Shown here in pieces: positions 19,851 to 63,190 of a stretch of DNA of 64,000 nt. The DNA is taken from contig JASTWF010000138.1 of NCBI GenBank assembly GCA_030390025.1, forward strand, positions 620,001-684,000, read 5' to 3'. The position numbers and the translations under genes were made by a program. Source of the stretch: Squalus acanthias (Eukaryota). The notes below the pieces were generated by a model that saw only the letters and a list, made by a program, of their open reading frames with translations, ran no database searches and was not told the origin of the DNA. How positions within the stretch are numbered: position 1 is the stretch's first letter; the number at the start of each line of letters is the position of its first letter.

Positions 19851-19851
19851 A

Positions 19852-35900: not shown

Positions 35901-36539
35901 ATCCTGTCCCATTAACGGAGCGACCAGCAGGAGGTTCCTGGCGCTGTCAGCAACCTCTTTCTCGGAGCTGATCTTAACATTATTCACTGACCTGTCTGCA
36001 GTTCCTGTTTATGGGAAGCTGGGTTAGAGCGGTTCTGAATTAATATGCCGTGCAGCAGTAAAGGTTTTATATCGTTAAACTAAAGACTGGAAGAAGAAAG
36101 TCCATACGATTAGTAAAGAGTGGAGACAAGGGATGAGAAGAGACAGGCAGGCCCGGAAATTGCATCGAAAGACAAAAGGTGAGTTGTGGATCCACAGACA
36201 TGATTGCTGAAGTTCATTTTTAGTATGAATGCGAATTGAAATCACAAACTAATATAATTCGGCCAGGGGACCTCACCTGTTCTTGTTGAGTGCTGTGTTT
36301 TTTTAATACTTTTAAGGAGATCCGTGTGACTCTCACTGTGAGGCTGAATTATTGCTTTTGGTTATCGGTGTGAGAGCGCCCTCTCAGTGTGCGTTTTGGT
36401 ACACTAGGGACGTTGAATAGTTACAATGAATGCTCATTGAGGTTCCTTCCAGTTATTGGGCTTCAGTTGGCCACTGCTTGAAGGAGTCTCCAGAACTCAG
36501 TTCTGCAGAAAACATTCCTGGTTTCCCATGGAAACAGAA

Positions 36540-37096
36540 TGAAAGTGAGAGTGACTGCCCTTGATATCAAGGCAGCATTTGACCGAGTGTGGCATCAAGG
36601 AGCCCGAGTAAAAGGGAAGTCAATGGGAATCAGGGGGAAAACTCTCCACTGGCTAGAGTCATACCTAGCACAAAGGAAGATGGTTGTGGTGATTGAAGGT
36701 CAATCATCAAAGCCCAGGACATCGCTGCAGGAGCTCCTCAGGGCAGTGTCCAAGGCCCAACCATCTCCAGCTGCTTCATCAATGACCTTCCCTCCAGCAT
36801 AAGGTCAGAAATGGGGATGTTCGCTGATGACTGCACAGTGCTCAGTGCCATTCGCAACTCCTCAGATAATGAAGCAGTCCATGCCCGCATGCAACAAGAC
36901 CAGGCAATGACTATCTCCAACAAGCGACAGTCTAACCACCGCCCCTTGACATTCAATGGCATTACAATCGCCGAATCCCCCACCATCAATATCCTGGGGG
37001 GGTGGTGGGGGGTCACCGTTGACCATAAACTGGACCAGCCACATAAATACTGTGGCAACAAGAGCAGGTCAGAGGCTGGGTATTCTGTGGCGAGTT
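36540..37096 (+). mobile_element. Non-LTR LINE RT fragment (second family)
   Basis: ALDIKAAFDRVWHQG and MFADDCT motifs, frameshifted. Confidence 0.8.
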
Positions 37097-39597
37097 ATCA
37101 TGAGTGATTTTAATCTACATATAGATTGGGCTAACCAAATTAGTAACAATACCGTGGAGGAGGAATTCCTAGAGTGTATACGGGATGGTTTCCTGGACGA
37201 ATATGTCGAGGAACCAACTAGAGACCAGGCCATCTTAGACTGGGTGTTATGTAATGAGAAAGGATTTATTTGCAATCTTGTTGTACGAGGTCCCTTGGGA
37301 GGAGCGATCATAATATGATAGAATTCTTCATTAAGATGGAGAGTGAATTAGTTGACTCAGAGACTAGGGACCTGAATTGAAATAAAGGAAACTACGATGA
37401 TATGAGGCGCGGGTTGGCTAGGATGGATTGGGGGACGTTACTTAAAGGGTTGACGGTGGATAGGCAATGGCAAACATTTAAAGATTGCATGGATGAACTA
37501 CAGAATTTGTTCATCCCTGTTTGGCATAAAAATAAAACAAAAAAGTTGACTCAACCGTGGCTAACAAGGGAAATTAGGGATAGCATAAAATCCAAAGAGA
37601 TGACATATAAATTGGCCAGAAAAAGCAGCAAACCTCAGGTTTGGGAGCAGTTTAGGATTCAGCAAAGGAGGACAAACGGATTAATTAAGAGGGGGAAAAT
37701 AGAGTATGAGAGTAAGCTTGCAGGGAACATAAAAACTGACTGTAAAAGCTTCTATATATATGTAAAGAGAAAAAGATTGGTGAAGTCAAGCATAGGTCCC
37801 TTGCAGTCAGAATCAGGGGAATTTAATGGGGAACAAAGAAATGGCAGACCAATTAAATACATACTTTGGCTCTGTCTTCACAAAGGAGGACACAAATAAC
37901 CTCCCAGAGATGTCGGGGAAGATAGATTCCAATGAGACGGAGGAACTGAATGAAATCAGTATTTGTAGGGAAATGGTGTTAGGGAATTAGACGGGATTGA
38001 AGGCCGATAAATCCCCAGGGCCTGATAATCTACATCCTAGGGTACTTAAGGAAGTGGCCCTAGAAATAGTAGATGCATTGCTGGTCATCTTCCAAAATTC
38101 TATAGACTCTGGCACAGTTCCCATGGATTGGAGGGTAGCTAATGTAACCCCACTATTTAAAAAAGGTGGTAGAGAGAAAACGGGGAATTATAGACCGGTA
38201 AGCCTGACATCGGTAGTGGGGAAAATGCTAGAGTCCATTATAAAAGATGTAATAGCAGAACACTTGGAAAACAGCAACAGGATCGGACAAAGTCAACATG
38301 GATTTACAAAAGGTAAGTCATGCTTGACTAATCTACTGGAATTTTTTGAGGATGTGACTGGTAGAATAGATAAGGGAGAACCAGTGGATGTGGTGTATTT
38401 GGACTTTCAGAAGGTTTCCGATAAGGTCCCGCATAAGAGATTAGCGTGCAAAGTTAAAGCACATGGGATTGGGGGTAAGGTACTAACTTGGATAGAGAAC
38501 TGGTCGGCAGACAGGAAGCAAAGAGTTGGAATAAACGGGTCTTTTTTCCGAGTGGCAGGCATTGACTAGTCGGGTACCGCTGGGATCGGTGCTAGGACCC
38601 CAGCTATTCACAATATATATTAATGATCTAGACGAGGGAACTAGATGTAATATCTCCAAGTTTGCAGACGACACAAAGCTGGGTGGGCGTGTGTGCTGTG
38701 AGGAGGATGCAGAGAAACTCCAGTATGATTTGGACAGGTTGGGTGATTGGGCAGATGCATGGCAGATGCAGTATAATGTGGATAAATGCGAGGTTATCCA
38801 CTTTGGTGGCAAAAACAGGAAGGCAGATTATTATCTGAACGGCAATAGATTGGGAAAAGGGGAAGTGCAACGAAACCTGGGTGTCCTTGTGCACCAGTCG
38901 CTGAAGGTAAGCATGCAGGTGCAGCAGGCGGTTAAGAAGGCAAATGGTATGTTTACCTTCATAGCGAGAGGATTCGAGTACAGGAGCAAGGATGTCTTGC
39001 TGCAGTTATACAGGGCCTTGGTGAGACCACACCTTGAGTATTGTGTGCAGTTTTGGTCGCCTTATCTGAGGAAGGATGTTCTTGTCATGGAGGGAGTGCA
39101 GCGAAGATTCACCAGACTGATACCTGGGATGGCATGAATGACGTATGAAGAGAGATTGGGTCGATTAGGCTTATATTCGCTCGAGTTTAGAAGAATGAGA
39201 GGGGATCTCATTGAAACTTATAAAATTCTAACAGGACTGGACAGACTAGATGCAGGAAGGATGTTGCCCGATGGCGGGGGAGTCCAGAACAAGAGGTCAC
39301 AGTCTAAGGATAAGGGGTAAGCCATTTAGGACTGAGATGAGGAGGAATTTCTTCACCCAGAGAGTGGTGAACCTGTGGAATTCTCTACCACAGAAGGCAG
39401 TTGAGGCCAATTCATTAAATATATTCAAGAAGGAGATCGATATATTTCTTAAGGCTAAAGGGATCAAGGGATATAGGGAGAAAGCAGGGACAGGGTACTG
39501 AATTTGGATGATCAGCCATGATCTCATTAAATGGCGGAGCAGGCTCGAGGGGCCGAATGGCCTACTCCTGCTCCCATCTTCTATCTTCTATGCTTCT
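37097..39597 (+). mobile_element. CR1 LINE (endonuclease end plus RT, frameshifted)
   Basis: DFN..EEPTRDQAILDWVL, KSPGPD, FADDTK and RPHLEYCVQFW; 3' UTR with ttctat tail. Confidence 0.93.
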
Positions 39598-39639
39598 AAC
39601 ATGATCTGCTGTTTTCTGTCTAATTCTAAACCAGGCACC

Positions 39640-40111
39640 ATGTGCTCCCCGTGTTCCATTCTCATAATAATGGTCGTGCTGTCCAGTGAGTTCATGTGTA
39701 AATGGTCATTGTGTGTTTCACGGATTATCCTTACTCCCAGACTTTTGACACATTCTGTGTTTTGTTACAGGAACGAGTGGCAAAAAATCAGTGTCCCAGG
39801 ATCCGTCTGAATTAATGGTTCAGCAAGGAAAACACATTAAATTGAACTGCAGTTACTCGGCAGCTGCTCCAACTCTGTTCTGGTACATCCAGTATCCCGG
39901 GGATGCTCCGAGATATTTACTGAGGATATATAGCTCGGGTACGGTAGACCAGTCTCCAGATTTCCCAGGCCGGTTTTCTGCTGTTTTGCACAGAGACAGC
40001 AAAACGGTTCCTTTAAATATCACCGCGGTTCTTGTCACCGACAACGCCGTCTATATCTGTGCCATAAGCCCCACACTGCTGCAGAGATATAGCGGATCCC
40101 GTACAAAAACC
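39640..40111 (+). CDS. TCR alpha/delta-type V segment V1 (leader 39640-39685, V exon 39771-40071, RSS 40072-40111); intact ORF
   Basis: SVSQDP..LNCSYS..LFWYIQYPG..RFSA..DNAVYICAISP; cacactg-24-acaaaaacc. Confidence 0.9.
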
Positions 40112-40369
40112 CACACTGAGAGTTCCAGTTAGTGATCACCAGAGGGCGCTCTCACACTGATAAACAGCAGCGATCATTCAGCCTCCAAAGTGAGAGTCAC
40201 AGGGACCTTCTTAACAGAGCGACATTTCACAACACTCAATAAGAACAGGTCAGGTCCACTTGGGGATCTTTTAGGTGATTTCAACTCGTATTTATAATAA
40301 ACATGAACTTCACAAATCATGTTTTTGGCGCCTTAACTCCCCTTTTGTCCTTTCTCTGTTGTGTACATT

Positions 40370-40872: not shown

Positions 40873-41422
40873 ATGCCCATTCCGTGCCTGCTTGCAATAT
40901 TGTGCAGCCCTTTACACATCTCCCCTGTCAGTGTCCCGGACCCATTGATCGCGGCCTGTACACAGGGTTTATTTGATCAGAGTATGTTGCTGGGTCAGAG
41001 ACAGTTTATACACAATGAACAGATTTCACAAGGTAGTGATTGTGCTTTTTAAAACAGGCCCCAAGCACAGAGTTCCCCCAATGTCCATTGTCCTTCAGAA
41101 TGTCTCTTTAATGCTGGAATATTTTCCGTCACCATTAACAACCCCTCAGCTTCCCGGTTGCAATAACCAGGCAAGAGTTTCATTCCCACACCGGACTCTA
41201 AAAGCGGAACCATTCCCCTATAAGGCACTGACTGTGGCCCAGCTCGGGGTGTTTCCATTCACTGGCAGCCAGCTCACCACCTACCGGTCTCACAGCACCA
41301 CTGGTGGACACCAGGAAGTGAGGTCAGAGCATCCTGAGACACGACAGCAGATTATTGAGGGCGGGAATTAGAACGGGTGTCTTCAAATATCCAACCCCGC
41401 TTTTACAGAGCGGACAGCGACA

Positions 41423-41937
41423 ATGCGGCTACTCAGCATCTGGGCTGTGTGGGGGACATTTCTGACCGGTAATTATGGACCAAACACATTTAATCTTTTC
41501 TCTCATTTCTAAACATGGTTTGAATCTGAATTATAAACACACGCCAGTCTGATCTTTTCCTGTTTGACCATGTTTTTCAGATCTGAGTCTTGGAGATTCT
41601 GTCACTCAGCCGCTGTCCTCAGGAGTTAAGACAGAAGGAGAAGCGGTGACTGTAAACTGTACCTATGACACTAAATGGAGCACCTTTAATTATTTATATT
41701 GGTACCGGAACCACCCAGATAGACAGCCCGAGTTTATACTGTGGAAGGATCATGATGGAGTTGATGGTGTTGAGCATAAAGCAGATTTTGGTAAAACCCG
41801 GTTCTCTGCAGAAATCCAGACCTCGACTAAATTCACCAGTTTTACCATCTCGGGGCTGCAGCTGACCGACACTGCAGTTTATTACTGCCCCCTGAGACCA
41901 CACTGATGGAAACCAGTTAAACCCTGGTACAGAAACT
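41423..41937 (+). CDS. TCR alpha/delta V segment V2 (leader 41423-41468, V exon 41581-41898, 23-RSS)
   Basis: DSVTQP..VTVNCTY..YLYWYR..PEFIL..RFS..LQLTDTAVYYCPLR; cacactg-23-acagaaact. Confidence 0.9.
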
Positions 41938-42649
41938 CCCGCCGCTTTGTAGATCAGAGGCTCCGCCTGCTGAAGCCGGATATGAGGCTCACTTTGTGCT
42001 GTTTGCGGTACCGGCCATCCTGAGAACTGTTCCCAAAGTCTCTCATTTGTCGGTTGGGTTCAGTCTGTGCAGTTTCCGCGTTGTTTTCCCTGTTACTCAC
42101 TGGGAACTGTCTCTCCTGAATCACTGCCAACTTCATCTTCAGACTATTGACTGTTGCTCTTGTGCCTGTTTTCTGGACAGTTTTCTCTGAGTTTGCGCAC
42201 CAGCTGGGGAATGGGAATCTCGCGGGGTCACAGTTCAGCCGAGACTTCTTTGTTCTGAAGGGGTTTTGGCTCCTCAATGGTTTATTACATCGTTACTGAA
42301 TGTGTTCCCTCCGTTCAGTTCATTTCCTGCCGACTGGAGCGCCAGGTCTGAGTGCGATTCTGACACGGAATGAGAACTGGTTTATATTTGTTTCATTAAG
42401 TTTGAAAGTTGAGGTGCCCATTACATGAACAGGGATTGTAAGCACCGTCCCATCGAATACCTTATTGTCAAATTAGCAACACGATTATTTTTATGAATAA
42501 TAAACATGATGTTTCCTGTTCTGTACTGTTAGTTGGATAGCGATATATTTGTCAGTTTTTACACGGACACTCTCCTGTGAGAAGTACTGACAGTCCCCGT
42601 TTCTCCCCACACTGCCCGCTATCCAGTTGCACCTGTCACATTCCGGCAG

Positions 42650-43218
42650 TGTGTTTTTACGAGGCTCCCTCTGGTTCCTGTCACTGTGTCTCTCAGCCCG
42701 CAGTGATACACCGCGCTGTCAGACAGCCGTAGGCCGCGAATGGTGAAATTCCCCTCACTTTCTGAAATGTCGTGAAATGCGGAAATTCGAGCCCCCGTGC
42801 CTCTGCTTTGAAAACATCTCCCTAAGAAGGACTGCAGATCAGCAATGTTGGCCCATTGTCGCGGTCCTGACGGTACAGTTGTAAGGAATGTGAAGGAGCA
42901 GTGGTCGAATAGCTGTAATTACTGGTCACCGAGTCTCCTTCAAACTGCATCGCTGCAAGCGGCCCCTGTGAGACCGAGTCCGCACCACTAACACCGACAG
43001 AAATATAGAAATACACAACTTTAAACTTTTCTTATCATGTTATTATAACTGATAGCATCAAGGTGGCGGAATATACAGGAAATAGAGGGAAAATACAGTT
43101 AAAAGGAAGATTCTCTATGGCAGTGATACGTGCAAGAGGGAAGATTGTGTAACTTGTAAACTTTACCAGTTAAGAGAGCCGCAGCTGTGACGAATGAATA
43201 AAAAGTAACTCCTAACAT
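42650..43218 (-). pseudogene. TCR V pseudogene V3
   Basis: Leader 43167-43218; acceptor AG>CG; first Cys and Trp lost; stop and frameshift; ends LSDSAVYHCGLRD plus cacagtg (42682-42688). Confidence 0.85.
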
Positions 43219-43859
43219 GTTTGCAGAGAGTTGATAACAGATTTGAACAGAACGGGTTAAACCTGAAGTATTTTAGTCAAGACTTGGGAAGGTGTTGAAT
43301 GATATCTGGCGTCCCTGCCGATTGGTTCATTCCTGACCGAGTCAACAGGTGAGATCCAAGCAGCTCACAGTTCCTGTTTACACAAATTCTTCCAATCAAC
43401 TCACAGCTACTTTGTTCTCCAATTCATCCAATCAGCTCATAGCTCCTTTGTTCGTCACTTCATGACGTCTGTGGTCAAAATGCTCTTGCTCACTGAACAA
43501 GCGACTGGGAAGAAATAGAGTGAGTGCGTAATTAAGGGATTATACCGTATCAGAAATAATGAGCGGCTTTAATCAGCTATAATCTTGATCTTTGAGAGCC
43601 AATAGCTGGCAATCGTGTTTTTATACATGACCAAAAACCTTAAATCTCCTCAATGACCTCATTCTAAGGCTTAGGTAATACAATGCGCCAGCAGAGGGCG
43701 CCAAACTCAAGAATGATAATTAGAAAGTCATGTGATGCAAACGCCAAGGCCAACAGCAATCGAAGCCTGAATGAGGTCACAATGGGGACGCCCCCTGCAG
43801 TGTGTGGGTGGAACAATGAGCTGAACAGCCCGGGTTACCGCTCTCCTTCTCAATCTCTG

Positions 43860-44267: not shown

Positions 44268-44838
44268 TGAGAGATTCAGTCAATTTCTAATAATACTGGC
44301 GGCTGTGTTGAACAGTAAGTATTGGATTATATATAAAACACACGTTAGCTGGTTGATGCAAAGAGCGTGTGCAGGGATTTAGTGCAATTACCGATCAGAA
44401 ATATTCACATGATGGACAGCTGTGTAGCTGGAGGGTTATCCACTCTCATACAGATAGACACAAGTTTCGATTTAATCTTCTGCTCTTCTGTTCCCCTATC
44501 TTCACAGGCGGGCTGTGTGCAGATCCAGTAACTCAGTCTCCGGTGACAATTGCCTTGTCAACAGGGGGTTCGGTGCCGTTAGATTGTGAATATAAAAGCC
44601 CGGATATTGACTACATGCAATGATATCGGCAGAAATCGGCACAGCCACCAAGCTGGATAATTAGCAAAGTGGTAGCACTGAAGGGAGACGAAATCTCAGG
44701 ACAATATCTGGCAGCTGCTAACACGTCTAGAACGTACGGTTACCTCAATATAAGCAGCCTGAGTGTGGAGGACGGGGCGGTCTATTAATGTGCAGTGAGG
44801 CACAGCGTCAGAAAAAGCAAAGGCCCCGGACAAAAACC
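44268..44838 (+). pseudogene. TCR V pseudogene V4
   Basis: Leader remnant FSQFLIILAAVLN|gtaagt with no ATG; V exon 44508-44800 with Trp>TGA and Tyr>TAA (AVY*CAVR); cacagcg-22-acaaaaacc. Confidence 0.85.
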
Positions 44839-44884: not shown

Positions 44885-45322
44885 CTGTGGGGTTAATTTG
44901 ATCCCAAACCCACGGAGACTAAAGACAGCCAGGTTTCTATTTCAACGAGTTGTATTTGTGTCTGTGTCTTTGCCCAAATCAGCGGAGAACCGGTCTGGGA
45001 AATCTGGAGACTTGTCTCCCTGCCCCGAGCTGTATCTCCTCATTAAATAACTCGGATCTTCCCCGGGGATACTGGTTGTACCAGAAGAGGTAGGGAAATC
45101 TATCGGCTGTGGAGTAACTAGAGTTCAGTATTAAGATCTGTCCTTCCTGAACCGTTAATTCAGGTGGATCCTGGGAAAATGAGGCTTCGCCATTGTAACA
45201 AAATACTGAATCTGTCAGAAGTCTGGGAGTAAATATAACCCATGAAATACATACGATATTTTAAACATAGACTCACCGGGCAGCACGACCATTATTATCA
45301 GTAAGAAACATGGGGAGCGCAT
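44885..45322 (-). pseudogene. TCR V pseudogene V5 (V1 family)
   Basis: Leader 45277-45322 similar to V1; acceptor deleted; Cys>Ser; frameshift; DKSPDFPDRFSA retained; no YYC or RSS. Confidence 0.8.
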
Positions 45323-45487: not shown

Positions 45488-45790
45488 TGACGTCATGAAT
45501 TGGCGAACAAAGTAGCTGTGAGCTGATTGGTTGAATTGGAAAACAAAGGAGCTGCAAACTGATTGGATAAATTGGAGAACAAAGGACCGAGAGCTGATTG
45601 AATGTGATCTGCTGACTCTGTCGGGAACGGACCAAACGGCAGAGAGACCGGATATTACTCAACATCTTCCCAATTCTTGACAAGACAATTTCAGCTTCAA
45701 ACCGTTCTGTTCAAATCCACCACCAACTCTCTGCAAACATGTTGGGTGTTACTTTTTATTTATTCGTCGCAGCTGCAGCTCTCTTAACTG
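45488..45790 (+). promoter_or_regulatory. V promoter module (CRE plus repeated inverted CCAAT) and orphan V3-family leader exon 45739-45790
   Basis: tgacgtca at 45488; repeated attgg; MLGVTFYLFVAAAALLT with donor mutated to ataagt. Confidence 0.6.
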
Positions 45791-46216
45791 ATAAGTTCAC
45801 AAGTTACACAGCATTGTGTTTCACATCTGTATCATACATTATATTTAATCGGTCAGTTCCCTGAACACATGAATATCAATAGGTTGATCCGAAGTGAAGA
45901 AAACCATCAGGATCCACCTTGACTCAACACTGAACACTGTTTGGGGAAACTCGACAAACTCCCTCAGTGAATGAAAGCGGATGAGTTGAGGTGAGATTAC
46001 AGGCGAATGGCAGACAGACAAGCCCGTCGGCGTCAATGACGGACATTGACAGACACACGAGTCTTAAACCCACAGACAGTTTGGAGTTTTCCCTTCACAT
46101 CACAAGAGGTGAAGGTGAGGAACTGATCCCGTTAGAAGGTGCTGAAGGTTAATTAAAGGGTGTTTATTCAGTCGATCCCAGCGCCATCCCGTGAGCAGCC
46201 CCTGAGCTGTGGGGAT

Positions 46217-46429
46217 ATATATTTATGTTCAACTGCCCTGATTTGCTTCACAGATAAGTGTTGGGGGTGACGGGCTGATTCTGGGCGGTAAACACAGTGA
46301 AGTGACATTGTTTAATTTAATATCGCTCTGGGCTCTTGCAGGACATGGGCGAGGAGACTCCGGTTCACAGACACCGGCTGCAACCACAGTAAATGAAGGA
46401 GACGATGTTCAGTTGTATTGTAATTATAC
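46217..46429 (+). pseudogene. TCR V segment V6 (V11 family), truncated by an assembly gap, probably a pseudogene
   Basis: GDSGSQTPAATTVNEGDDVQLYCNY then Ns; leader ATG>ATA and donor GT>AT relative to V11. Confidence 0.7.
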
Positions 46430-49036: not shown

Positions 49037-49505
49037 GGTTTTTGTACAGTGACTGCCGCGTTTCCTCTCAGTGTGCGGCTCTATCGCACAGTAATACACC
49101 GCGGTATCCGCGCTCTCCGTGCTCTCAATGACCAATTGGCCGCGTTTGTCCGCAGTGGAAAGATCCAATTCAAATCGGTCCCTTCTCTCTTTGCCAGCTG
49201 ATGCCCGCATTATTACCCACTCCAGTCCCTGACTGGTTTCTGTTTGTACCAGTGCATGGCGTAAATGCTGGACATGTCATAGCTGCAGTTTATCTGCACC
49301 GAATCCCCGCTCCGGACTGTTATCGCAGCGGGAGACTGCAGCACTCGGTCCGAGAGACATCGACCTGTAAAAACATTCAGATAATAAAACACTGGAGCAA
49401 CGTGAATAAAACAAACACTGCGGGTTATTGAGCACAGCTCCTGTACCTACATGGTAGCAGCACCAGAATAACGAGTGATACATTCACTTGTACCGAGTAA
49501 TACAT
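49037..49505 (-). pseudogene. TCR-locus V segment V7 with a single frameshift in FR2
   Basis: Leader 49451-49505; V exon 49076-49364 DRVLQSP..INCSY..YAMHWYKQKP/QGLEWV..DTAVYYCAIEP; cacactg-23-acaaaaacc. Confidence 0.85.
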
Positions 49506-50600: not shown

Positions 50601-51972
50601 TTTATTCCAGGGTCAATTCATTCTCTATAATCCCGTTAGTTTTACCGTCAGGACACTGTTAACCGTGACTCCAGTGACCTTTCCCCTCCCGGGTCAGTTC
50701 ACTGGTGAAATAACAATGTTGTCGGAATGATTTATAGATCCCTGATATTAGAATGATGACATCTGCTGTGACTGAACAAACAACTGAACAGATTAAAGAA
50801 TAAACTCTCCCTGTAATTTAAACAGAGTTTCAAGAACTGTCCCCTTCTGTGGTTTGTATTAAAATGCTGTTTAAATTCTATCTGTTAAGTTCTGACCTTC
50901 TTTCTGTCTGTAATGATTTATTTAAAGATCCATAATCTTCAGATTTTTGATTACCAATGAGAGAGAATGGAGGGAACAGCCTAGCGGTGCTTTTCAGGAA
51001 TTTACCGCTCATCTGTATAAAGTGCCCGGGAGCAGAGCGCGGGGAGCGGGTTCTAAGCCCCCAGGGTGAGGTGCATGCTCTCGTTACCAAGAGCTCAACA
51101 TCAGCAGGGCATGAAAAACTGTCCTGACAACTATCTCGCATATTAACAAATGATGAGGAGCAGAAAAAGAAACACAATACAGGCAGTTTCGATTTGTTTT
51201 TCGCCCCTTTAACATCGATTTCCAGCATCAGTACAGTTAATAGCTTCAGAAATCAGATCTCAGGGTGTGTCTTTCATTCACATTTTACTATTGCTTTCCC
51301 CATCTTCCACATCCTTCCACTCTCTTGTCCTGCCCACTGGTTAGTATCAAAATTCAATCCTTCGATATGATGGATGTCTTTTTGTGATGATTATTGCCCG
51401 ATGTACCGACCCAGCCCATTGTGGATTTCAAACATTAATCTTCAGTTCATTCCAAAATATACACAACTGTTGGAGAAACAGCGTTTAACTCACTGCCCGG
51501 GGTCTGAGCCAAACAAAGGATATTGTGAGCTGACGCCCTCTGGTGGATATTCTGAGAAATGTTCAGATGTCGGTGGACAGGGTGTGAGGAATCCTGTGTG
51601 TATTCACTGAACTGTCTGCAATTCCTGGTTATGGGAAGCATCGTTCAACGACAGATTGGAACAAGAAAGTTCGTACGATTATAGGTAAAGCGTGGAGACA
51701 GGGGATGATAAAGGACAGGCAGGCACGGAAAGTGCATAGAAAGACAAAAGGTGTGTTCAGGAACTACAGATGGATTTGTGAATTTCATTTTTATCATTTT
51801 GAAATCACCAACTAATGTAATTCTGCCAGTGGACTTCACCTTTTCATGTGGAGTGTTGTGTTTTGTCGACATTTAGAAGGTCCCTGTGACTCTCACTGTG
51901 GAGGCTGAATTATCGCGTGTTTATCGGTGTGAGAGCGCCCTCTGGTGAGCACTAACTGCAACTCTCAGTGTG

Positions 51973-52488
51973 GGTTTTTGTACGGGCTCCGCTATATCTC
52001 TGCAGCAGTGTGGGGCTCATGGCACAGAAATACACGGCGGTGTCCGAGATCAGGGCATTACTGATCGTTAGCTCGGTAATCTTGCTGCTTTTATTAAACG
52101 TAGAAGAGAATCGGTCAGTGAATTCAGGGTTCCTGTTTACTATTCCTGCATAGAGATACAACACGTACTGTGGAGGCTGCCCGGGGTGCTGACTGTACCA
52201 GTACACATAAGGGGTAGTAGCGGTTGTTTTCAAGGTGCAGTTTAGTGTGACGTTACTTTCCTCTTCAACCGTTATTTCAGAAACCGGCTGTTCCACTGCG
52301 TCTTGATGGCTCCATTCTAATATAAAATAATAGTAATAGTCATCACCATCACCATCATCATTAGGATCATTTAACCAATTATCATAGCTGGGTTACAGCC
52401 GTCAGGGGGAGAATGGATTTTAACTGGGGAGGAAATACTTACTGAGAAGTGATATAATGATGAGGAGCGGTGCGAGGCGGTTGTACAT
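51973..52488 (-). CDS. TCR alpha/delta V segment V8 (leader 52443-52488, V exon 52013-52316); intact
   Basis: DAVEQP..VTLNCT..YVYWYSQHPGQPPQYVL..DTAVYFCAMSP; cacactg-24-acaaaaacc. Confidence 0.9.
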
Positions 52489-53265
52489 GACGCTCCCTGA
52501 GTCTGTAACTCTGCAGTCCTGGAAATCCTCTGTCGGAGCAGAAATACAGATCCCCGCCGCACTGCACTGCTGATCCAACCAATGCCAAATAAGTAAGCTC
52601 TCCGATAACAGAAGGCGGGTTAAAGCGAGAGCAGCAAACGGAAGCTGTGGGCGGGGCTGCCGCGGGCAGTGTTACTGCAAGCTTTGTCTCCATCATTTCC
52701 AGTTGGTAACGGCCAGAAACATGTGACCACGGCGCCCTCTGGCGGTCACTCTGAGAACTTTACACTGTTAGGATAATAGATTGAGTAAAGTGTGAGTTTA
52801 TCTATGGCGAACTTTCCAGCGTCCGGGTTTTGGGAGAGGCGGTTCAGACAATTTAACTGTGAAATAGGTGGAAGGATAATATGAGTGAGCTTAAAGGGAA
52901 GGGAAATTTTACTTTATTTCTGAATCTCTTTCTTTATGGCTTTCTCTTAACTTTAAGATTTATGTTTCTCACTTATTATTTCTCACTTTCTTTCATTTCT
53001 TTTTCCCTCCTTCCTAATTTGCTGTCCACTACACGTATTATTACATTGATTTTTCTCTTTCTCTCATTCTTTCTTTAGTGCCTTCGCTTTGTTTTCCTCT
53101 GTCTGTGTTTCAAAATCTGTTCATTTCAGAATTTCTTTAACTCTCTCTCTTCTATATTTCCTATTATTTTCTGTGTTCATTCTCTCTGTCCTCCGATTAT
53201 TATAACCGGGCCCCTCCCAATCCCGTTGCTCCAAACACAGCAGAGCGGCGCTCCCCCTCGGTGCA

Positions 53266-53638
53266 GGTTTCTGTGCGGACTCTCCGCCTGTTTGTTACAC
53301 TGTGGGCTCACGGCGCAGAGATAGGTGGCGCTGTCTGTCACTCGCGCGTCTCTCACAGTCAGGGCACTGAGTTTATTGCCTCCCCCGATTGAAGCAGTGA
53401 TCCTCCCGTGTTGATCGGTCCCGCTTGTGGCCATCACCAGATGCTGGAGGGTCTGATCCGGGTTCTGTCTGTACCAGTGCAGGACGTTAAACCCAGCGGT
53501 AGCGGAGCAGTTGATGGACACGATTCCCTCTTCACTAACAACCACCCGCCGAGGGAGCTGCTCCACCTCATCTTCACCGCTCACATCCGTGCAGATCAGA
53601 GTGTAAATCAGCAGGGAAACTCTGTAAATCCGGAGCAT
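53266..53638 (-). CDS. TCR alpha/delta V segment V9 with intronless leader (coding 53305-53638, 23-RSS 53266-53304)
   Basis: Single ORF MLRIYRVSLLIYTLICTDVSG-EDEVEQLP..INCS..LHWYRQNP..DSATYLCAVS; cacagtg-23-acagaaacc. Confidence 0.9.
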
Positions 53639-54275: not shown

Positions 54276-55564
54276 TTTCACCCTGTCTTCTGGTGGCGAG
54301 TACTTGCGAGGTGCAATTATTGACGCCAATTCCCGATAATTTGCAGTACACAAGATAGTTATAAGAGAGAACGGCTACTCGCTCCTTCAAGGGATGACTC
54401 CGTCATTCAGAGAGATCCCAGCTCTCGACTTCCATTGTAGCATCCAACGATTCCAGTGTATTCTCCTCCCCCACTCTAACTGAAAGTTTATTCCACACAT
54501 TGATCACTCTCTGTGTGTGAAGCGGGATTTCCTGATACCAGTCCTGGAATTTTAACCCGTGTTCTTTCCCAGAAGGATGGAGTGGGAATTTTTTATGCTA
54601 ATATTTACAACATAACAATAGTAATAATAACATTGATAAATCATGATGAAAACTGATAATAAGCCATATAAACACTGATATTAATTTCAAAGTCAAGCCT
54701 CTATTTCCGAATCTGCTTCTTTAATCCCTTCAATAAAGTTACTGAACAATGTTCTCAGGCTGCAACTCGCCTCGATACTGAAACCAGCACAGTGAACACA
54801 TCCTCGCACTGCCCTCTGGTGGCGACTGCCTGTAACTACAAGGTACAAGACCTGACCTGTTCCAGTTCACAAGATCATTCTGAATGAGGGAAGTCATTCG
54901 GCCCGTATTGTCCCATCCATCCAGAGAGATACTATCTCCCGGCCCCACTGTGGCCTCAAACTTTTCCTTAAAAGTTTCCAGGATATGTTCCTCCACCACT
55001 GTATTCGGAAACTTATTCCATACATTCACCAGTTTCCATGTGTGAAGAAGATATTGTCCTATAATTACATTTTATACTTTGAACCCGTGATTCCCTCTTC
55101 TACTTCAAACAGTTCAATTTAAAGTAATATTGCTGAATATGTTTTTAATACATCAACTGTGTGATACTTCTCTAGATGTCATTGCAGTCAGGCACTGAGT
55201 ACGGTGCTGATTAAAACTCTCGCACATCCGCGAGCAGCAGGTCACAAGCGCTGGGTTTGTCACCTTGGAATTGATTATTCCAAAGAAAGAAGGCAGGGAT
55301 CATTGTGAGAGAAAGTGAGGACAGCGCGACAATTCCTCACAGGTGGATCCTACGTGTGACATCACTTCCCGCGGCAGCCCCGCTCACAGCTTCCGTTTGC
55401 TGCTCTCGCTCTGACCCGCCTTGCCTGCCCGGTGTTATTGGAGAGATTGCTGCCTCTGTTCCCTGTTTGACATTGGTTGGATCAGCAGTGCAGTGGGGCG
55501 GGGATCTGTATTTCTGCTCCGACAGAGGATTTCCCGGACTGCAGAGTTACAGACTCGGAGCATC

Positions 55565-56151
55565 ATGCGGAACCGGCTCGCACCGCTCCTCATCATTATA
55601 TCACTTCTCAGTAAGTAATTCCTCCCCAGTAAACATCCATTATCCCCCTGACTGCTGTAACCCAGGTGTTATTATTGGTGAAATGGTGATAATGATGGTG
55701 AATTAGACACATTTCATCTCTACTCTCATTTCCATTATGTTTTAAATCTGAATTTTAAACACCCGCCGGTCTGATCTTTTCCTGTTTGAACATGTTTTTC
55801 AGATCTGAGCCTTGGAGATTCTGTCACTCAGCCGCTGTCCTCAGGAGTTAAGGCAGAAGGAGAAGCGGTGACTTTAAACTGTACCTATGATACTACACAG
55901 GGCGGCAGCTATAATTTGTACTGGTACCGGCAACACCCAGACACACAGCCCGAGTTTATTCTGATGAAATACGCGAGCGGTTCTGAAGATAAAGCACATT
56001 TTGCCCAAACCCGTTTTTCAGCACAACTCGACAGCTCCACTAAATTCACCAGTTTAACCATCTCGGGGCTGCAGCTGACCGACACTGCAGTTTATTACTG
56101 TGCCCTGGGACTCACAGTGATGGAAACCAGTTAAACCCTCGTACAGAAACT
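55565..56151 (+). CDS. TCR alpha/delta V segment V10 (leader 55565-55610, V exon 55803-56112, 23-RSS); intact, chimeric leader
   Basis: MRNRLAPLLIIISLL/NLSLGDSVTQP..NCTY..LYWYRQHP..DTAVYYCALG; cacagtg-23-acagaaact. Confidence 0.9.
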
Positions 56152-56779
56152 CCCTCCGCTTTGTAGATCAGAGGCTCCGCCTGCTGAAGCCGGATATAAC
56201 GACGGGCAGATGTGAAGAGCGATACAAAATAATTATTCAGCAAATCTGCCATTTCCTTATATTCTATGACATTATCACCCGAGTGTGTTTTTAAGCGGCC
56301 CACATTACCCTGAGCCCCGCTTTCTCTTCTTACTTTGAAAACGTTTCCATATAATCGCCATCAGAGGGCAGTTCATTGTTCGTTTGAGTGTCGGGGCGAG
56401 TTACAGACTAAGAACATTGTTCATTTTATTTAACTAAAGAATTAGAGAAACACATTTTTAAATGCAGGCATTAAGTTCAAAAGCAAGTCTGTGTTCCAAA
56501 TGGTTAACTATTAAGTTATTGTGAATGTGGTTATTGTTAACGTGAATACGTTGTAAATATTTGTAATGAGCAGCTCGCCCCAGAATCAGTAAAACTATCT
56601 GTTGTCTGCACCCTCCCATTCTGCTCAAACCTGTCAGTCACTCCCCATTTCATTCATATAAAAGGTCGCGTTTGTCTAATTTACCGCATCGTTGTGTTCA
56701 AATCCTCAGGATCTACTGGCCGTCTCTACCTCCCTTTATATCGGCTGTGGGTAGTTCTAATGGTCAGTGAGCAGCTCTT

Positions 56780-57800
56780 TTAATGGGAGCCTCCGGCACT
56801 GCTGCCAGAACAATATTAACAAATTCCTTTCACTGGCCCCACCTCACAGACTGAAACTGTTAAAGGGCCAACATTGGGTTTAATCCCCGTCCAGTTCTCT
56901 GTTGTGAGGAGAACAAATGAGCTGTGAGCTGATTGGATAAATTGGAGAACAAAGGACTAGTGAGCTGATTGGATATCTCCTGCTGACTCTGTCAGGAATG
57001 AACCAATCGGCAGAGAGGCCGGATATTAGTCAACATCTTCCCAGCTCTTGACTAAAACAAATTCAGGTTCAACCCGTCATCCGACATCAACTCCCTGCAA
57101 ACATGTTGGCTGTTACATTTTATTTATTCGTCACAGCTGCAGCTCTCCTAATTGGTAAGTTCAAAAGTTACACAACACTGTATTTCACATCTGCATCATA
57201 CATTATATTTAATCGATCAGTTCCCGGAACACAAGATTATCAATATGTTGATCCAAAGTGAAGAAAACCATCCGGATCCACATTGACTCAACACTGAACA
57301 CTGTTTGGGGAAAATTGACAAAACCCTCCAGTGAAGGAAAGCGAAAGAGTTGAGGTGAGATTACAGGCGAATGGCAGACAGACCCGCTCCGCCCCGCCGG
57401 GGTCAATGACGGACTTTGACAGATAGACGATTCTTAAACCACAGACAGTTTGGAGTTTTCCCTTCACATCACAAGAGGTGAAGGTGAGGAACTGATCCCG
57501 TTGGAAGGTGCTGAATGTTCATTAAAGAAAGTTTTATTCAGTCGATCTCAGCATCATCCCGTGAGCAGCCCCTGAGCTGTGGGGAAATGTATTTCTGTTT
57601 AACTGCCCTGATTTACTTCTCAGGTAAGTGTTGGGGGTGACGGGCTGATTCTGGGGGATAGACACAGTGAAGTGACATTGTTTAATTTAATATCGCTCTG
57701 GGCTCTTGCAGGACATTGTCGAGGAGACTCCGTTTCACAGACACCGGCTGCAACCACAGTCAGTGAAGAAGACGATGTTCAGTTGCACTGTAATTATACA
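56780..57800 (+). repeat. Segmental duplicate of ~45340-46429
   Basis: Collinear high similarity across the promoter, both leaders and the V 5' end. Confidence 0.85.
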
Positions 57801-58056
57801 GCTACAAGCACCAGCGATCTTACCTATTCTGGTACCGTCAGTATCCCAGCGGATCCATAGAGTATCTGCTGCAGAGAACAAGATACAGCAAGAACGAAGG
57901 GAGATTTCCAGGGGTCCGTTTTTCAGCGAAGCTCAATGATTCGAGCCGAACCGTCCCGCTGAATGTGTCTGAAACACAACTGACAGACTCCGCGGTGTAT
58001 TACTGCGCACTGAGCCCCACAGAGACACGGAGCTGGGCTGGACCTGTACAAAAACT
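57587..58056 (+). pseudogene. TCR V segment V11 with a single frameshift in CDR1
   Basis: Leader 57587-57623; V exon 57712-58017 DSVSQTP..LHCNY../YLFWYRQYP..DSAVYYCALS; cacagag-23-acaaaaact. Confidence 0.85.
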
Positions 58057-58539: not shown

Positions 58540-59523
58540 AATATAAATAAAGACATTATCTAGTGCAGTATTAACTGAGAAAGGGCCTAGTGTAATACAA
58601 AGAGAGACATTGCCTAATGCAGTAGCAACTGAGACAGGGCCTTGTGAAAAATAAACAGTGATAAAGTATAGTGCATTGATAGCTGATACGGGGCCTGGTC
58701 TTATATATACAGAGAAAGTGTCAAGTGCAGTAATAACTGAGACAGGGTCTAGTGTAATCTAAACAGAGACAGGGTCTAGTGTAATCTAAACAGAGACAGG
58801 GTCTAGTGCAGTAATAACTGAGACAGGGCCTAGTGTAATATAAATAGAGACATGGTCTAGTGCAGTAATAACTGAGACAAGGCCTAGTTTAATATAAACA
58901 GAGACAGGGTCCAGTGTAATATAAACAGAGACAGGGTCTAGAGTAATATAAACAGAGACAGGTTCTAGTGCAATATAAACAGAGACAGGGTCTAGTGTAA
59001 TATAAAAAGAGACAGGTTCTAGTGCAATATAAACAGAAACAGCGTCTAGTGTAATCTATACAGAGACAGAGTCTAGTGTAATATAAACAGAGACAGGGTC
59101 TAGTGTAATATAAACAGAGACAGGTTCTAGTGCAATATAAACAGAGACAGGGTCTAGTGTAATATAAACAGAGACAGGGTCCAGTGTAATATAAACAGAG
59201 ACAGAGTCTAATATAATATAATCAGAGACAGGTTCTAGTGCAATATAAACAGAGACAGGGCCTAGTGTAATATAAACAGTGACAGGGTCCAGTGTAATAT
59301 AAACAGAGACAGGGTCTAGTGTAATATAAACGGAGACATGGTCTAGTGTAATATAAACAGAGGCAGGGCAGAGTGTAATATAAACAGAGACAGTGTGTCA
59401 TGTTATAATAAAAAAGACATGGTTTAGCGTCAATTAATCTGCGACAGCGTCGAGTGTTATCTTTGAGAAATGCACTTGTTAACATTAAGAATGATGTGCT
59501 TTACACACACACACATACTCACA

Positions 59524-59581
<58 letters not shown>

Positions 59582-60190
59582 ACGCTTTGTACGTGCTATT
59601 TTCAGTGTTCTTGTTAACCAGATGATAGTTGTGCACTTGGTATCATTAGGAACCTGTGGCAGCCCATCAGGCGTTGCTGTGAGATCACGGTCCCAGACTC
59701 TGTCGAGCACTATCAGTGGGTCATGCGAAAGCTAAATAGAAAAGTCTATGTAATATAAAGAGAGACCGGGCCCAGTGTACTATAAACAGCGGCATGGTAT
59801 GGTGCAGTATTAAAAAAGACAGGGTCTAGTGTAATATAAACAGAGACAGGGTCTATTGCAGTAGTAACTGAGACAGGGTCTAGTGTAATATAAACAGAGA
59901 CAGGGCCGAGTGTAATATAAACAGAGACAGGGTCTATTGCAGTAGTAACTGAGACAGGGTCTAGTGTAATATAAACAGAGACAGGGCCGAGTGTAATATT
60001 AACACAGACATTGTCCAGCACTTTCTAACTGTGACATGGCCTGGTGTAATATAAACAGGGGCATGGTCTAGTGCAGTAATAAATAATATAGGGCCTAATG
60101 TTATATAAGCAGAGACATTTTCTATTGTAGTAATAAATGAGACGGGGCCTAGTGTAATATGAACAGAGACAGGGTCTCGTGCAGTAATAA
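58540..60190. repeat. 27-bp minisatellite (same family as 6720-7530), interrupted by a unique spacer with (CA)n(TA)n at ~59500-59580
   Basis: gtctagtgtaatataaacagagacagg units at 58540-59410 and 59745-60190. Confidence 0.9.
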
Positions 60191-61347
60191 TTGAGATATT
60201 GGTCAGATCTTTAACCATTGAGCACAGACAGACATTGAGCTGATTCATCGAGGAAAGCCTCACTCACCTGCACAGATACATTGCTCAGATGTTTAACCTT
60301 TGAGACCAGACAGGCCTTGAGCTGCTCTACCGTGTCAGTCCTCACTCACCTGCACAGATACATTGCTCAGATATTTAAGCATCAAGAGCAGACAGGGATA
60401 GGGCTGATACACCGTGGGGGTCCTCACTCAGCTGCACAGGTACGTTGCTGAGATCTTCCTTTCGTTTAATCACTTCCATTGTTCCATTTCTTAATTTTAA
60501 TCTGCTGTTTGTTTTTCTGATCCTTGTCTGTTTTATATATCTATTTATCCCTATCTGTTCTGCTTTTCCTAATGCTCGGTTCTCGCCATCTCCCCCATTT
60601 CCTGCAAAACATCCAGATTCCCCCTTTCCCATGTACTCTGGTGACACCGTGCAGTCTGTGTGACGTCAGTCTGTGTAACGTGAGTATGCAGTCTGTGTGA
60701 CGTCAGTCTGCTGTCTGTATGACGTCAGTCTGCATTCTATGTGTGTGACGTCTGTGTTTGTCGCCAGTCAGTGTGACGTCAGTGTGCAGTCTGTGTGACG
60801 TCAGTCTGCACTCTGTGTGACGTCAGTCTGCATTCTGTGTGTCCCGGAATTTCAATTACCGTCAGCCTCTCTCGCTCTGTGTTTGAGTGACGTGGCGTGG
60901 GCCACATTTGAGTGACGTACAGTCGGACTTGTTTGGGTGCCGCACAGACGGCCTTGTTTGAGTGAGCTATAGTCGGCCATGTTTGAGAGATGTGATGTCG
61001 GTGATGTCGGCGATATTTGGGTGACGTTTGAATGTCAGCAACCTCCTTCTTGGAGCTGATCTGAATATTGATCCATGACTTTAAGGGAAAACAGCTGATC
61101 AGAAACTTAAAGGACAGTTTAACCGGTCGGTTCATTCTGTGATCGATCTTTCGGGCCGATTTGATTCTGCAGTTTGTTTTTTCGGCCGCTCTTGGAAGCA
61201 GCTGGGTGACAGTTTGATCTGAGGTTAATTTGGTTTCCTCTCGGTGTGTGTTTGAGCGCCTGACAACGCGCTGCACATTGTGGCTGCATCTGCCCGCGAT
61301 TCCACACAACCCCAACAGACAGGAGCTCCGCCCTGCAGTCCAATGGC

Positions 61348-61850
61348 AGTTTTTGTACGGGGCTGAGACTGATTTCCATCACTGTGAGTCTCAGGGCGCA
61401 GTAATACACGGCAGCGTCAGTCAGCTGCAGCCCGGAGATGGTTAAACTGGTGAATTTAGTCGAGGTCTGGAGCTCAGCAGAGAAACGGGTTTTAGCAAAA
61501 TCTGCTTTATCTTCAGCACCGTTCGAGCGTTTCCTCAGTATATACTCGGGCTGTGTGTCTGGGTGTTGCCGGTACCAGTATAAATAATAGTCGCTCCATG
61601 TAGTATCATAGGTACAGCTTAAAGTCACCGCTTCTCCTTCTGTCTTAACTACTGAGGACAGCGGCTGAGTGACAGAATCTCCAAGACTCAGATCTGAAAA
61701 ACATGTTCAAACAGGAAAAGATCAGACCGGCGGGTGTTTAAAATTCAGATTCAAACCATGTTAGAAATGAGAGAAAAGATGAAATGTGTTTGGTCCACAA
61801 TTACCTGTCAGAAATGCCCCCCACACAGCCCAGATGCTGAGTAGCCGCAT
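61348..61850 (-). CDS. TCR alpha/delta V segment V12 (leader 61805-61850, V exon 61387-61693, 23-RSS); intact
   Basis: DSVTQP..LSCTYDTT..YYLYWYRQHP..DAAVYYCALR; cacagtg-23-acaaaaact. Confidence 0.92.
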
Positions 61851-62189
61851 TGTCGCTGTCTGCTCTGTAAAAGGGGGGCTGGATATTTGAAGACACCCGT
61901 TCTAAACCCCGCCCTCAATAATCTGCTGTCCTGTCTCAGGATGCTCTCACCTCACTTCCTGGAGTCCCCAGTGGTGCTGTGAGACCGGTAGGTGGTGAGT
62001 TGGATGCCCGTGAATGGAAACACCCCGAGCTGGGCTACAGTCAGTGTCCTTACAGGGGAATGGTTCCGCTTTTCGAGACCGGGTGGGAATGAAACACTTG
62101 TATGCTTATTGTAATTTGAAAGCAGTGGGTTATAAATGGGTTTGGTTCATTCCGGCGTCAATGCGATCTCTAGAATTCGGTTCGCCTTA

Positions 62190-63190
62190 CCATCAGGACA
62201 CTGGTAACCGTGACTCCAGTGCGCTTTCCCGGTCAATGAACTCGATATTTCAGCTGAATGATTTGTAGATCCGTGATATTAGAGCGATGATAGTTGCTGT
62301 TACTGAACAAACAATTGAACAGACTTAAAGAATAAACTCCTGCTGTAATTTAAACAGGGTTTCGAGAACCGCCCTTTCTGTGGTTTGCATTTAAAATTTG
62401 TTTAAATTCTATCTGTTGAGTTCTCCGCTTCTTTGTGCCAGTTCTTTAAATCTTTCATTCTTTAAAGATTCATAATCTTCAGATGTTGGATTTGCAATGA
62501 GAGAGAATGAAGGGAGCGGCGCATCCGCGCTTTTCAACAATTTCCCGCTCATCTGCTTAAAGTGCCCAGGAACAGAGCGCGAGGAGCGGGTTCAAAGGGT
62601 GAGGTGTCGGGCGGGATCTCGTTAACAGAAGCTCAACACCAGCAGGGCTTGTAAAACTCCTTACAACTTTCACTCATAATAGAAAAGGATGAGGCTCAGA
62701 GAAATAAACACAATGCAGGCAGTTTCGGTTTGTGTTTCGCCCCTTTAACATCGATCTCCAGCATCGGTACAGTTAATGGCTTCAGAAATCAGATCTCAGG
62801 CTGTGTCTTTCATTCACATTTTAATATTTCTTGCCCCATCTTCCACACCCTTCCACTCACTGGTCCTGCCCACTGGTTAGTATCAGAAGTCAATGCTTCG
62901 CAATGAGCGATGTCTTTTTCTGACGATTATTGCCCGAAGTGCCGACCCAGCCAATTGTGGCAAATTAATTTCAAATATTAATCATCTTTTGATTCAGAAA
63001 TTGACACAACTGTTAGAAAAACAGCATTTAACTCGCTGCCCGGGGTCTGCGTCGAAAATGGAATATTGTGACCTGACGCCCTCTTGTGGATATTCTGAGA
63101 ACGGTTCAGATGTCGGTGGACAGGGTGAGAAATCCTGTGTTTTTTCTCTGCCCTGTCTGTAGTTCCTGTTTATGGGAAGCTGGGTTGGAG
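62190..63190 (+). repeat. ~1-kb segmental duplicate of ~50630-51640
   Basis: Collinear similarity (aaccgtgactccagtg .. gcttcagaaatcagatctcagg .. tgacgccctct). Confidence 0.85.

What the first reader, a model, noticed from the sequence alone, without database searches (positions are those of the whole stretch)
36376..63089. Dense array of CTCF-consensus motifs among the V segments, two of them RSS-proximal
Seen: matches to CCASYAGRGGGCRS on + at 40136-40149, 43688-43701, 47188-47201 and 56358-56371, and on - at 36376-36389 (weak), 51533-51546, 51935-51948, 52732-52745, 54809-54822 and 63076-63089. For V1 and V8 the motif lies 24 bp beyond the RSS nonamer. I noticed no comparable match inside the IgM cluster. 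Known: RSS-adjacent CTCF elements control mouse proximal VH usage through cohesin-driven RAG scanning. Inference: loop-extrusion control of V choice may already operate in a shark TCR locus, and the mixed motif orientation would suit the mixed V orientation.
Basis: partly seen in the sequence, partly recalled or inferred. Interest (0 to 1): 0.7.

Follow-up and report, generated by a model that had tools for sequence, protein, structure and literature searches.

The report
CTCF sites among shark TCR genes
Nine strong copies of the DNA motif bound by the genome-folding protein CTCF sit among shark T-cell-receptor V gene segments, two right behind the recombination signal, and they likely anchor DNA loops that would help decide which V segments get used, a control worked out in mice.

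Summary
The motifs are real. Nine of ten listed sites score 15-23 bits on a recalled CTCF matrix; 36376 is a broken copy. At most 0.4 are expected in shuffles; 0 of 1000 column-permuted matrices reach nine. The sites fall into about five duplicated families. Only 2 of 10 V signals (V1, V8) have a site within 100 bp, at exactly 24 bp. Most others lie 0.2-1.2 kb ahead of a V leader, as in mouse Tcra/d. V1 and V8 are different V families (55% identical) sharing one RSS-plus-CTCF cassette (RSS 98%, unusual 24-bp spacer); a horn shark gene model reads through a compatible cassette. The IgM cluster has no strong site inside; one lies just 3' of it. Loop anchoring plus short-range diffusion (Igk/Tcrb-like) is likelier; mixed orientation is largely a by-product of block inversions. 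Binding and effect on V usage are untested. No report for sharks in my searches. New variant of a known kind; interest 0.5.

The parts
40136..40149 (+). CTCF motif, family A, 24 bp beyond the V1 nonamer, pointing away from V1
   Evidence: 20.0 bits; distance
51935..51948 (-). CTCF motif, family A, 24 bp beyond the V8 nonamer, pointing away from V8
   Evidence: 17.8 bits; core 14 of 14 identical to 40136
36376..36389 (-). Decayed family A copy: 5' half of the motif deleted, V exon gone; not a credible site
   Evidence: -0.6 bits; 21-bp deletion against 51935; 36071-36384 is 79% identical to 51640-51943
52732..52745 (-). CTCF motif, family B, 243 bp upstream of the V8 start codon, pointing towards V8
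   Evidence: 22.2 bits
47188..47201 (+). CTCF motif, family B; its matching V8-type promoter piece lies about 1.7 kb further on (48876-48976) and has no V gene of its own
   Evidence: 19.5 bits; core 14 of 14 with flanks 59% identical to 52732
51533..51546 (-). CTCF motif, family B', in a 1-kb block duplicated at 62146-63180
   Evidence: 18.9 bits
63076..63089 (-). CTCF motif, family B', 1225 bp upstream of V12, pointing towards it
   Evidence: 16.6 bits
54809..54822 (-). CTCF motif, family C, 1170 bp upstream of V9 (459 bp of that is a minisatellite); best upstream-motif match
   Evidence: 23.4 bits
56358..56371 (+). CTCF motif, family C, 206 bp beyond the V10 nonamer and 731 bp ahead of an orphan leader
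   Evidence: 15.1 bits
43688..43701 (+). CTCF motif, single-copy D, between the diverging pseudogenes V3 and V4
   Evidence: 22.2 bits
54283..54296 (-).
   Evidence: 13.7 bits
33565..33578 (-).
   Evidence: 17.6 bits; exons read
7572..7585 (-).
   Evidence: 20.4 bits
39640..40111 (+). V1: leader, open V exon of the V5 family, RSS 40072-40111 with a 24-bp spacer
   Evidence: Pfam V-set
51973..52488 (-). V8: leader, open V exon, RSS 52012-51973 with a 24-bp spacer; CTCF motifs on both sides
   Evidence: shark TCR alpha-like relatives
40040..40358 (+). RSS-plus-CTCF cassette shared by V1 and V8 (copy at 51735-52044, minus strand)
   Evidence: 80% over 324 bp; exon 55%, FR3 end 83%, RSS 98%, tail 78%
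41423..41937 (+). V2, open, RSS with 23-bp spacer, no RSS-adjacent motif
42650..43218 (-). V3, pseudogene with RSS
44270..44838 (+). V4, pseudogene (stops), RSS with 22-bp spacer, LINE end at its leader
44965..45322 (-). V5, frameshifted V1-family copy without RSS
46212..46429 (+). V6, V11-family 5' part running into an assembly gap
49037..49505 (-). V7, frameshifted, RSS with 23-bp spacer
53266..53638 (-). V9, open, RSS with 23-bp spacer
55565..56151 (+). V10, open; V8-family promoter and leader on a V2-family exon
57587..58056 (+). V11, frameshifted, RSS with 23-bp spacer
61348..61850 (-). V12, open, V2 family, RSS with 23-bp spacer
13067..32935 (+). IgM cluster (VH, D, JH, C-mu, membrane exons): comparison region with no strong CTCF motif inside

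Best explanation
Nine strong CTCF motifs sit among shark TCR V segments that face both ways, and they likely bind CTCF and stall cohesin, which would hold the V cluster near the D-J recombination centre so that RAG likely pairs signals by short-range diffusion in either orientation, not by one-way scanning alone. Shown: the motifs, their enrichment, their positions, their spread by duplication and inversion of V cassettes, and one RSS-plus-motif cassette shared by V1 and V8. Inferred from mouse work: promoter-side sites would act like the Tcra/d and Trbv1 elements; the two RSS-side sites would give V1 and V8 a local advantage like mouse proximal VH elements, perhaps offsetting their 24-bp spacer; with four sites on one strand and five on the other, the cluster would stop cohesin from either side; the site at 33565 would help wall the IgM cluster off from the V array.
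For: Enrichment: 9 sites against 0.24-0.39 expected, 0 of 150 shuffles in each of three sets, 0 of 1000 permuted matrices; five families against a mean of 0.4 gives Poisson p=6e-5. The cores are better kept than their flanks in the two most diverged pairs: 14 of 14 against 59% (p=0.0006) and 13 of 14 against 66% (p=0.025). A recalled upstream-motif consensus scores above background at the expected 8-9 nt spacing for all 16 of 16 choices of one site per family (p 0.0007-0.011); core and upstream motifs are reported as nearly identical in lamprey, chicken and human (PMC5504073). The one copy that lost its V gene also lost half its motif (36376). A horn shark gene model (P0002, XP_067869992.1) reads gap-free through the RSS and tail: 12 of 14 residues match over the RSS, 4 of 5 over the motif, 15 of 39 over the tail of V1; its motif peptide is the only one of 2397 windows in three shark proteins that could encode 18.3 bits, and the one change falls on the C/G position of the consensus. 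V segments with an RSS face + in 5 and - in 5 of 10 cases. Mouse precedent: Tcra/d sites are mostly upstream of V promoters (PMC5859386); inversional joins need diffusion and CTCF barriers (PMC10772921; PMC12820099). Skate has a CTCF orientation code and the cohesin genes (PMC10115646).
Against: No binding, contact or repertoire data; the matrix and the upstream consensus are recalled, not fetched. Motif scans alone did not predict human Hox CTCF sites well (PMC5504073). The nine sites are about five families, and the excess over the IgM half is not significant once collapsed (p=0.14). The core-versus-flank test is biased because pairs were chosen and aligned on the motif, and it is not significant for the other two pairs (p=0.07, 0.31). 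Orientation agrees with the nearest V in only 7 of 9 (p=0.09). Several sites are next to pseudogenes or orphan leaders. Four of six open V genes have no site within 200 bp of the RSS. No D, J or C of a TCR is in the window, so the direction of the recombination centre is unknown and the array could be a detached cluster. The horn shark evidence is one automatic gene model seen as protein only; a search with its tail found no second example among 7 hits. In mouse, loss of CTCF did not significantly reduce Tcra/d contraction (PMC7696796).
Confidence: 0.55

Rival explanations
1. Igh-type linear RAG scanning: RAG bound at D-J scans extruded chromatin, stops at RSS-side CTCF sites and joins only V segments in deletional orientation; the opposite-facing half of the array is largely unused.
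For: The family A geometry (RSS, 24 bp, motif pointing away from the V) matches mouse proximal VH elements (PMC5859386; PMC7930373; bioRxiv 10.1101/2020.01.01.891473). Mouse Tcra/d joins are nearly all deletional (PMC10772921).
Against: Open V genes with RSS persist in both orientations (V1, V2, V10 on +; V8, V9, V12 on -), and V1 and V8 carry the same cassette on opposite strands. Only 2 of 10 RSSs have an adjacent site. Inverting mouse VH genes abolishes their use under scanning.
Confidence: 0.12
2. The sites bind CTCF but act only as promoter-side elements or as a domain border; their number and mixed orientation are by-products of V-cassette duplication and inversion, with little effect on V choice.
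For: About five families account for nine sites; orientation follows inverted blocks; sites persist beside pseudogenes; the diverging pair 33565(-) and 40136(+) looks like a domain border, as reported for skate insulation minima.
Against: The A cassette keeps a fixed 24-bp distance to the RSS on two V families and, as far as protein can show, in horn shark, which a border does not need. The orphaned copy decayed.
Confidence: 0.25
3. The motif is a chance or repeat-borne G+C-rich word that was multiplied by duplication and is not bound by CTCF.
For: Permuted matrices reach up to 7 hits on this duplicated sequence; transposons spread CTCF motifs in lamprey; no occupancy data.
Against: 0 of 1000 permutations reach 9; the families have unrelated or barely related flanks; none of the nine strong sites lies in the LINE copies or tandem repeats shared across the window; upstream-motif signal.
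Confidence: 0.08

Closest known systems
Mouse Tcra/Tcrd V-promoter CTCF sites (PMC5859386; PMC7696796)
   Same: Same kind of locus (TCR alpha/delta V segments); about one site per V; many sites upstream of V promoters and pointing along the V.
   Different: In mouse 129 of 144 sites face J-C and joins are nearly all deletional; here sites split 4 to 5 by strand and V signals 5 to 5, and two sites are RSS-adjacent.
Mouse proximal VH RSS-adjacent CTCF elements, e.g. VH81X (PMC7930373; PMC8167033; bioRxiv 10.1101/2020.01.01.891473)
   Same: Motif directly 3' of a V RSS, pointing away from the V; within the 100 bp given for mouse VH families.
   Different: On TCR V segments, on 2 of 10 RSSs only, on opposite strands, behind 24-bp-spacer RSSs; function untested.
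Mouse Igk locus (PMC12820099; PMC5859386)
   Same: V genes and CTCF sites in both orientations; inversional joins are needed for part of the array.
   Different: Igk sites are mostly intergenic and their orientation does not correlate with V orientation; here sites lie within about 1.3 kb of a V and mostly travel with it. No Cer/Sis-like element could be looked for.
Mouse Tcrb, Trbv1 element (PMC10772921)
   Same: V-proximal site proposed as loop anchor with diffusion-based pairing; mouse Tcrb also has 2 sites near an RSS (PMC5859386 Table 2).
   Different: All Tcrb V-region sites face D-J; far lower V density.

Membership tests
CTCF-binding element | Strong match to the core motif | tested here: met
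   9 of 10 listed sites at 15.1-23.4 bits on a recalled matrix
CTCF-binding element | More frequent than chance | tested here: met
   genome-wide shark background not available
CTCF-binding element | Upstream (M2) motif at the expected spacing | tested here: inconclusive
   4-7 of 10 letters of a recalled consensus; group p 0.0007-0.011; no single site is a near-perfect match
CTCF-binding element | Core conserved above flanks | tested here: inconclusive
   significant in 2 of 4 paralogous pairs, test biased by ascertainment; one horn shark protein read-through compatible
CTCF-binding element | Bound by CTCF and cohesin in vivo | not testable with these tools
   needs ChIP or CUT&Tag in shark thymus
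Proximal-VH-type RSS-associated element | Within 100 bp 3' of a V RSS, pointing away from the V | tested here: met
   V1 and V8 at 24 bp; 2 of 10 RSSs
Proximal-VH-type RSS-associated element | All V signals and sites face the D-J centre (deletional joining only) | tested here: not met
   V RSSs 5 + and 5 -, sites 4 + and 5 -
Proximal-VH-type RSS-associated element | Site needed for use of its V | not testable with these tools
   no repertoire or mutation data
Tcra/d-type V-promoter element | Upstream of a V promoter or leader, pointing along the V | tested here: met
   8 of 9 sites point along the next leader ahead; six at 243-1273 bp; leader choice is flexible in so dense an array
Tcra/d-type V-promoter element | Convergent partner site at the D-J-C end (TEA/INT-like) | not testable with these tools
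   no TCR D, J or C in the window
TCR alpha/delta V array | V-set exons with 23-type RSS related to shark TCR alpha/delta V | tested here: met
   6 of 6 open exons are Pfam V-set; V8's best hits are 62-75% identical shark proteins, one named TCR alpha-like; only V8 was searched

The most novel reading that the evidence does not exclude
CTCF-anchored control of V choice is older than the split of sharks from bony vertebrates, and in sharks it comes as a portable RSS-plus-CTCF cassette that recombination grafts onto unrelated TCR V families, lifting their use despite a 24-bp spacer, while a site just 3' of the neighbouring IgM cluster gates how often its VH joins TCR delta.
Probability: 0.2. Interest if true: 0.75.

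Novelty: new variant of a known kind. Interest (0 to 1): 0.5.

Why it matters
How V segments spread over a long locus reach the recombination centre has been worked out in mice. Sharks carry both layouts, small Ig clusters and long TCR arrays, and here they sit side by side: the IgM cluster has no strong CTCF motif inside and the TCR V array has nine. If the sites work, loop-based control of V(D)J recombination dates from the earliest jawed vertebrates. The window also holds a natural experiment: V1 and V8 share an almost identical RSS and CTCF site but face opposite ways, so their relative use in thymus separates one-way scanning from diffusion without any engineering.

Tried and rejected
Raw consensus count (39 matches against 5.1 expected) was set aside as a measure because 25 of the 39 are one IgM-intron minisatellite. 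36376 was dropped from all counts of strong sites as a decayed copy; 54283 (13.7 bits) was left out of the nine-site geometry test. A near-length protein search with V8 found nothing; the longer-length search gave 4 hits. The solved-structure search gave generic antibody and TCR V domains and did not settle the family. The search with the horn shark read-through tail found only itself and 6 weak hits that align to part of the tail only and were not used. The C-mu4 search placed the window among sharks (named hits 83-90%; horn shark 83%) without naming the species; a closer unnamed record was not followed. CpG observed/expected is 0.61 in the V array against 0.45-0.67 elsewhere and was uninformative. 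A transposon origin found no support in the window, but no repeat library was available. Two papers were not held (DOI 10.1007/s00251-020-01183-5; PMC6026039), so the exact mouse RSS-to-site distance and the published nurse shark locus map stay unchecked. No supplementary files were read.
Full report
Setting. The window holds a shark IgM cluster (VH leader 13067, VH RSS 13545, one D, JH, C-mu exons at 23.9-29.0 kb, membrane exons at 32.7-32.9 kb) followed by LINE remains and an array of V segments at 39.6-61.9 kb. The C-mu4 exon matches named shark IgM chains at 83-90%. V8's best hits are two horn shark gene models (71% and 75%) and a catshark protein named TCR alpha chain-like (62%). Linkage of IgH clusters to TCR alpha/delta in sharks is published (PMC12227049, passages; the word CTCF occurs 0 times there). 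I count 12 V segments, 10 with an RSS: V1, V2, V4, V10, V11 on + and V3, V7, V8, V9, V12 on -. Six have open frames and all 6 are Pfam V-set. No TCR D, J or C lies in the window.

Observation. All ten listed sites are at the stated places. On a CTCF count matrix recalled from memory (close to JASPAR MA0139.1, not fetched), nine score 15.1-23.4 bits and 36376 scores -0.6. In 36-64 kb, 9 sites reach 15 bits against 0.24-0.39 in shuffles that keep 2-, 3- or 4-letter words; 0 of 150 shuffles reach 9 in each set. Because duplication can multiply any word, I ran 1000 column-permuted matrices on the real sequence: mean 0.20, maximum 7, 0 of 1000 at 9. The IgM cluster has no site of 13 bits or more in 20.8 kb.

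The sites are relatives. Self-comparison groups them as A (40136, 51935, relic 36376), B (47188, 52732), B' (51533, 63076), C (54809, 56358) and D (43688). Five families still exceed a mean of 0.4 (Poisson p=6e-5), but the contrast with the left half falls from p=0.012 to p=0.14. Cores are 14, 14, 13 and 13 of 14 identical in pairs A, B, B' and C, with flanks at 83, 59, 84 and 66% (for C the downstream flank only; upstream is 33%); p=0.07, 0.0006, 0.31, 0.025. This test leans towards the motif because pairs were picked and aligned on it. The relic at 36376 has lost its V and, by a 21-bp deletion, half its motif. A recalled upstream-motif consensus scores above background at 8-9 nt spacing for all 16 ways of taking one site per family (p 0.0007-0.011). 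Lamprey, chicken and human share core and upstream motifs, though that paper also warns that motif scans alone predicted human Hox sites poorly (PMC5504073, passages).

Position. Only V1 and V8 have a site within 100 bp of the nonamer, both at 24 bp; V10 has one at 206 bp and V9 at 520 bp. Eight of nine sites point the same way as the next leader ahead of them, six at 243-1273 bp; against the nearest V the agreement is 7 of 9 (p=0.09). V8 has a site on each side. In mouse, RSS-adjacent sites mark proximal VH families, whereas Tcra/d sites are mostly upstream of V promoters, 129 of 144 facing J-C, and Igk sites show no link to V orientation (PMC5859386, passages and section 20). So the array resembles Tcra/d in site position and Igk in its two orientations. 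The orientations follow inverted duplications such as 41132-41940 against 62139-61345, which explains the match without selection.

A shared cassette. V1 and V8 exons are 55% identical, yet the end of framework 3 is 83%, the RSS 98% and the next 200 bp 78% identical; V1's body is instead 77% identical to V5. The RSS-plus-motif block was therefore most likely moved from a V8-type gene onto a V5-type exon (inference). Both RSSs have a 24-bp spacer, the only 2 of the 10. The horn shark model P0002 (XP_067869992.1) runs through its RSS and tail in the V frame with no gap: CSAEGAL against CSPEGAL in V8. Against V1, 12 of 14 residues match over the RSS, 5 of 8 in the gap, 4 of 5 over the motif and 15 of 39 in the tail; V8's tail is frameshifted relative to it (4 of 39). 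That peptide is the only one of 2397 windows in P0001-P0003 that could encode 18.3 bits, although under 1% of its codon choices reach 15 bits, so it shows compatibility, not the DNA. The window is probably not horn shark (C-mu4 83%), which would make this cross-species; the species was not determined. A search for more read-through models found none.

Mechanism. Shown: motifs, spacing, families, cassette. From published work: skate has CTCF motifs facing into domains and the cohesin genes (PMC10115646, passages); mouse proximal VH elements are needed for use of their V and inverted VH genes stop recombining (PMC7930373, passages; PMC8167033, passages; bioRxiv 10.1101/2020.01.01.891473, passages); scanning cannot make inversional joins, and a V-side site can anchor loops for diffusion-based pairing (PMC10772921, passages); CTCF barriers are needed for inversional Vk joins (PMC12820099, abstract and Introduction). 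Inferred: whichever side D-J lies on, about half of these V segments must join by inversion and about half of the sites face away. The cluster would then work as a two-way cohesin barrier that parks the V segments near the recombination centre, with final pairing by diffusion, and the A sites would favour V1 and V8 locally. The site at 33565 points back at the IgM cluster and diverges from 40136, 43688 and 47188, the arrangement expected at a domain border. Against a large role: CTCF loss did not significantly reduce mouse Tcra/d contraction (PMC7696796, passages). Confidence 0.55; border or promoter role only 0.25; strict scanning 0.12; not CTCF sites 0.08.

Novelty. In the held library, no paper had all of CTCF, shark, T cell receptor, locus and V segments. 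Of 30 listed papers on CTCF, antigen receptor loci and RAG scanning, one mentions shark, once. Searches on teleost Ig and CTCF (2 papers) and on CTCF, shark, TCR and thymus (8 papers) listed nothing on this by title; these and searches were seen as listings only, apart from the papers named above. Most subscription journals are not covered, and two key papers were not held. CTCF sites at V genes are a known kind; their presence in a shark TCR array with two orientations, and the cassette shared between V families, make this a new variant. It rests on sequence alone, hence interest 0.5.

Noticed in passing
window 13545-14452: The IgM cluster has one free D (12-bp RSS on its 5' side, 22-bp on its 3' side) and a JH preceded by a 12-bp-spacer RSS, which may be a germline-joined D2-J; sharks are recalled to have V-D-D-J clusters with partly pre-joined forms.
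   Followed up: no
window 55363-56151: V10 is a chimera: promoter and leader are 84% identical to V8's, while the exon belongs to the V2/V12 family.
   Followed up: partly
window 53266-53638: V9 seems to have no leader intron: a hydrophobic leader runs in frame into the V exon.
   Followed up: no
window 41940, 56154, 61345 and 36384-36400: Several duplication borders fall at or next to RSS nonamers, as if the RSS serves as a crossover point for shuffling V exons and their tails.
   Followed up: partly
window 29471-30967: A 53-bp minisatellite (28.7 copies) between the secretory and membrane exons of IgM carries a weak CTCF-like word in most units (8.9-10.4 bits).
   Followed up: partly
window 43354-43463, 45495-45604, 56908-57175: A promoter family with 36-bp repeats holding CCAAT boxes precedes V3 and two orphan leader exons (45739, 57103) that have no V exon of their own.
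   Followed up: no
window 48876-49014, 52612-52712, 55363-55460: A G+C-rich element with a GC box and a GGAAG word recurs upstream of V8 and V10 and, without a gene, just beyond the V7 RSS.
   Followed up: no
window 60652-60841: An 11/22-bp tandem repeat with many TGACGTCA (CRE-like, recalled) words lies about 0.5 kb beyond the V12 RSS.
   Followed up: no
window 46430-46669: A 240-base assembly gap hides the 3' half of V6 and could hide an RSS or a motif.
   Followed up: no
P0001 (XP_067869829.1): A horn shark gene model joins a V8-family V to a V2/V12-family V in one direction, suggesting that these two families are neighbours there as well.
   Followed up: partly
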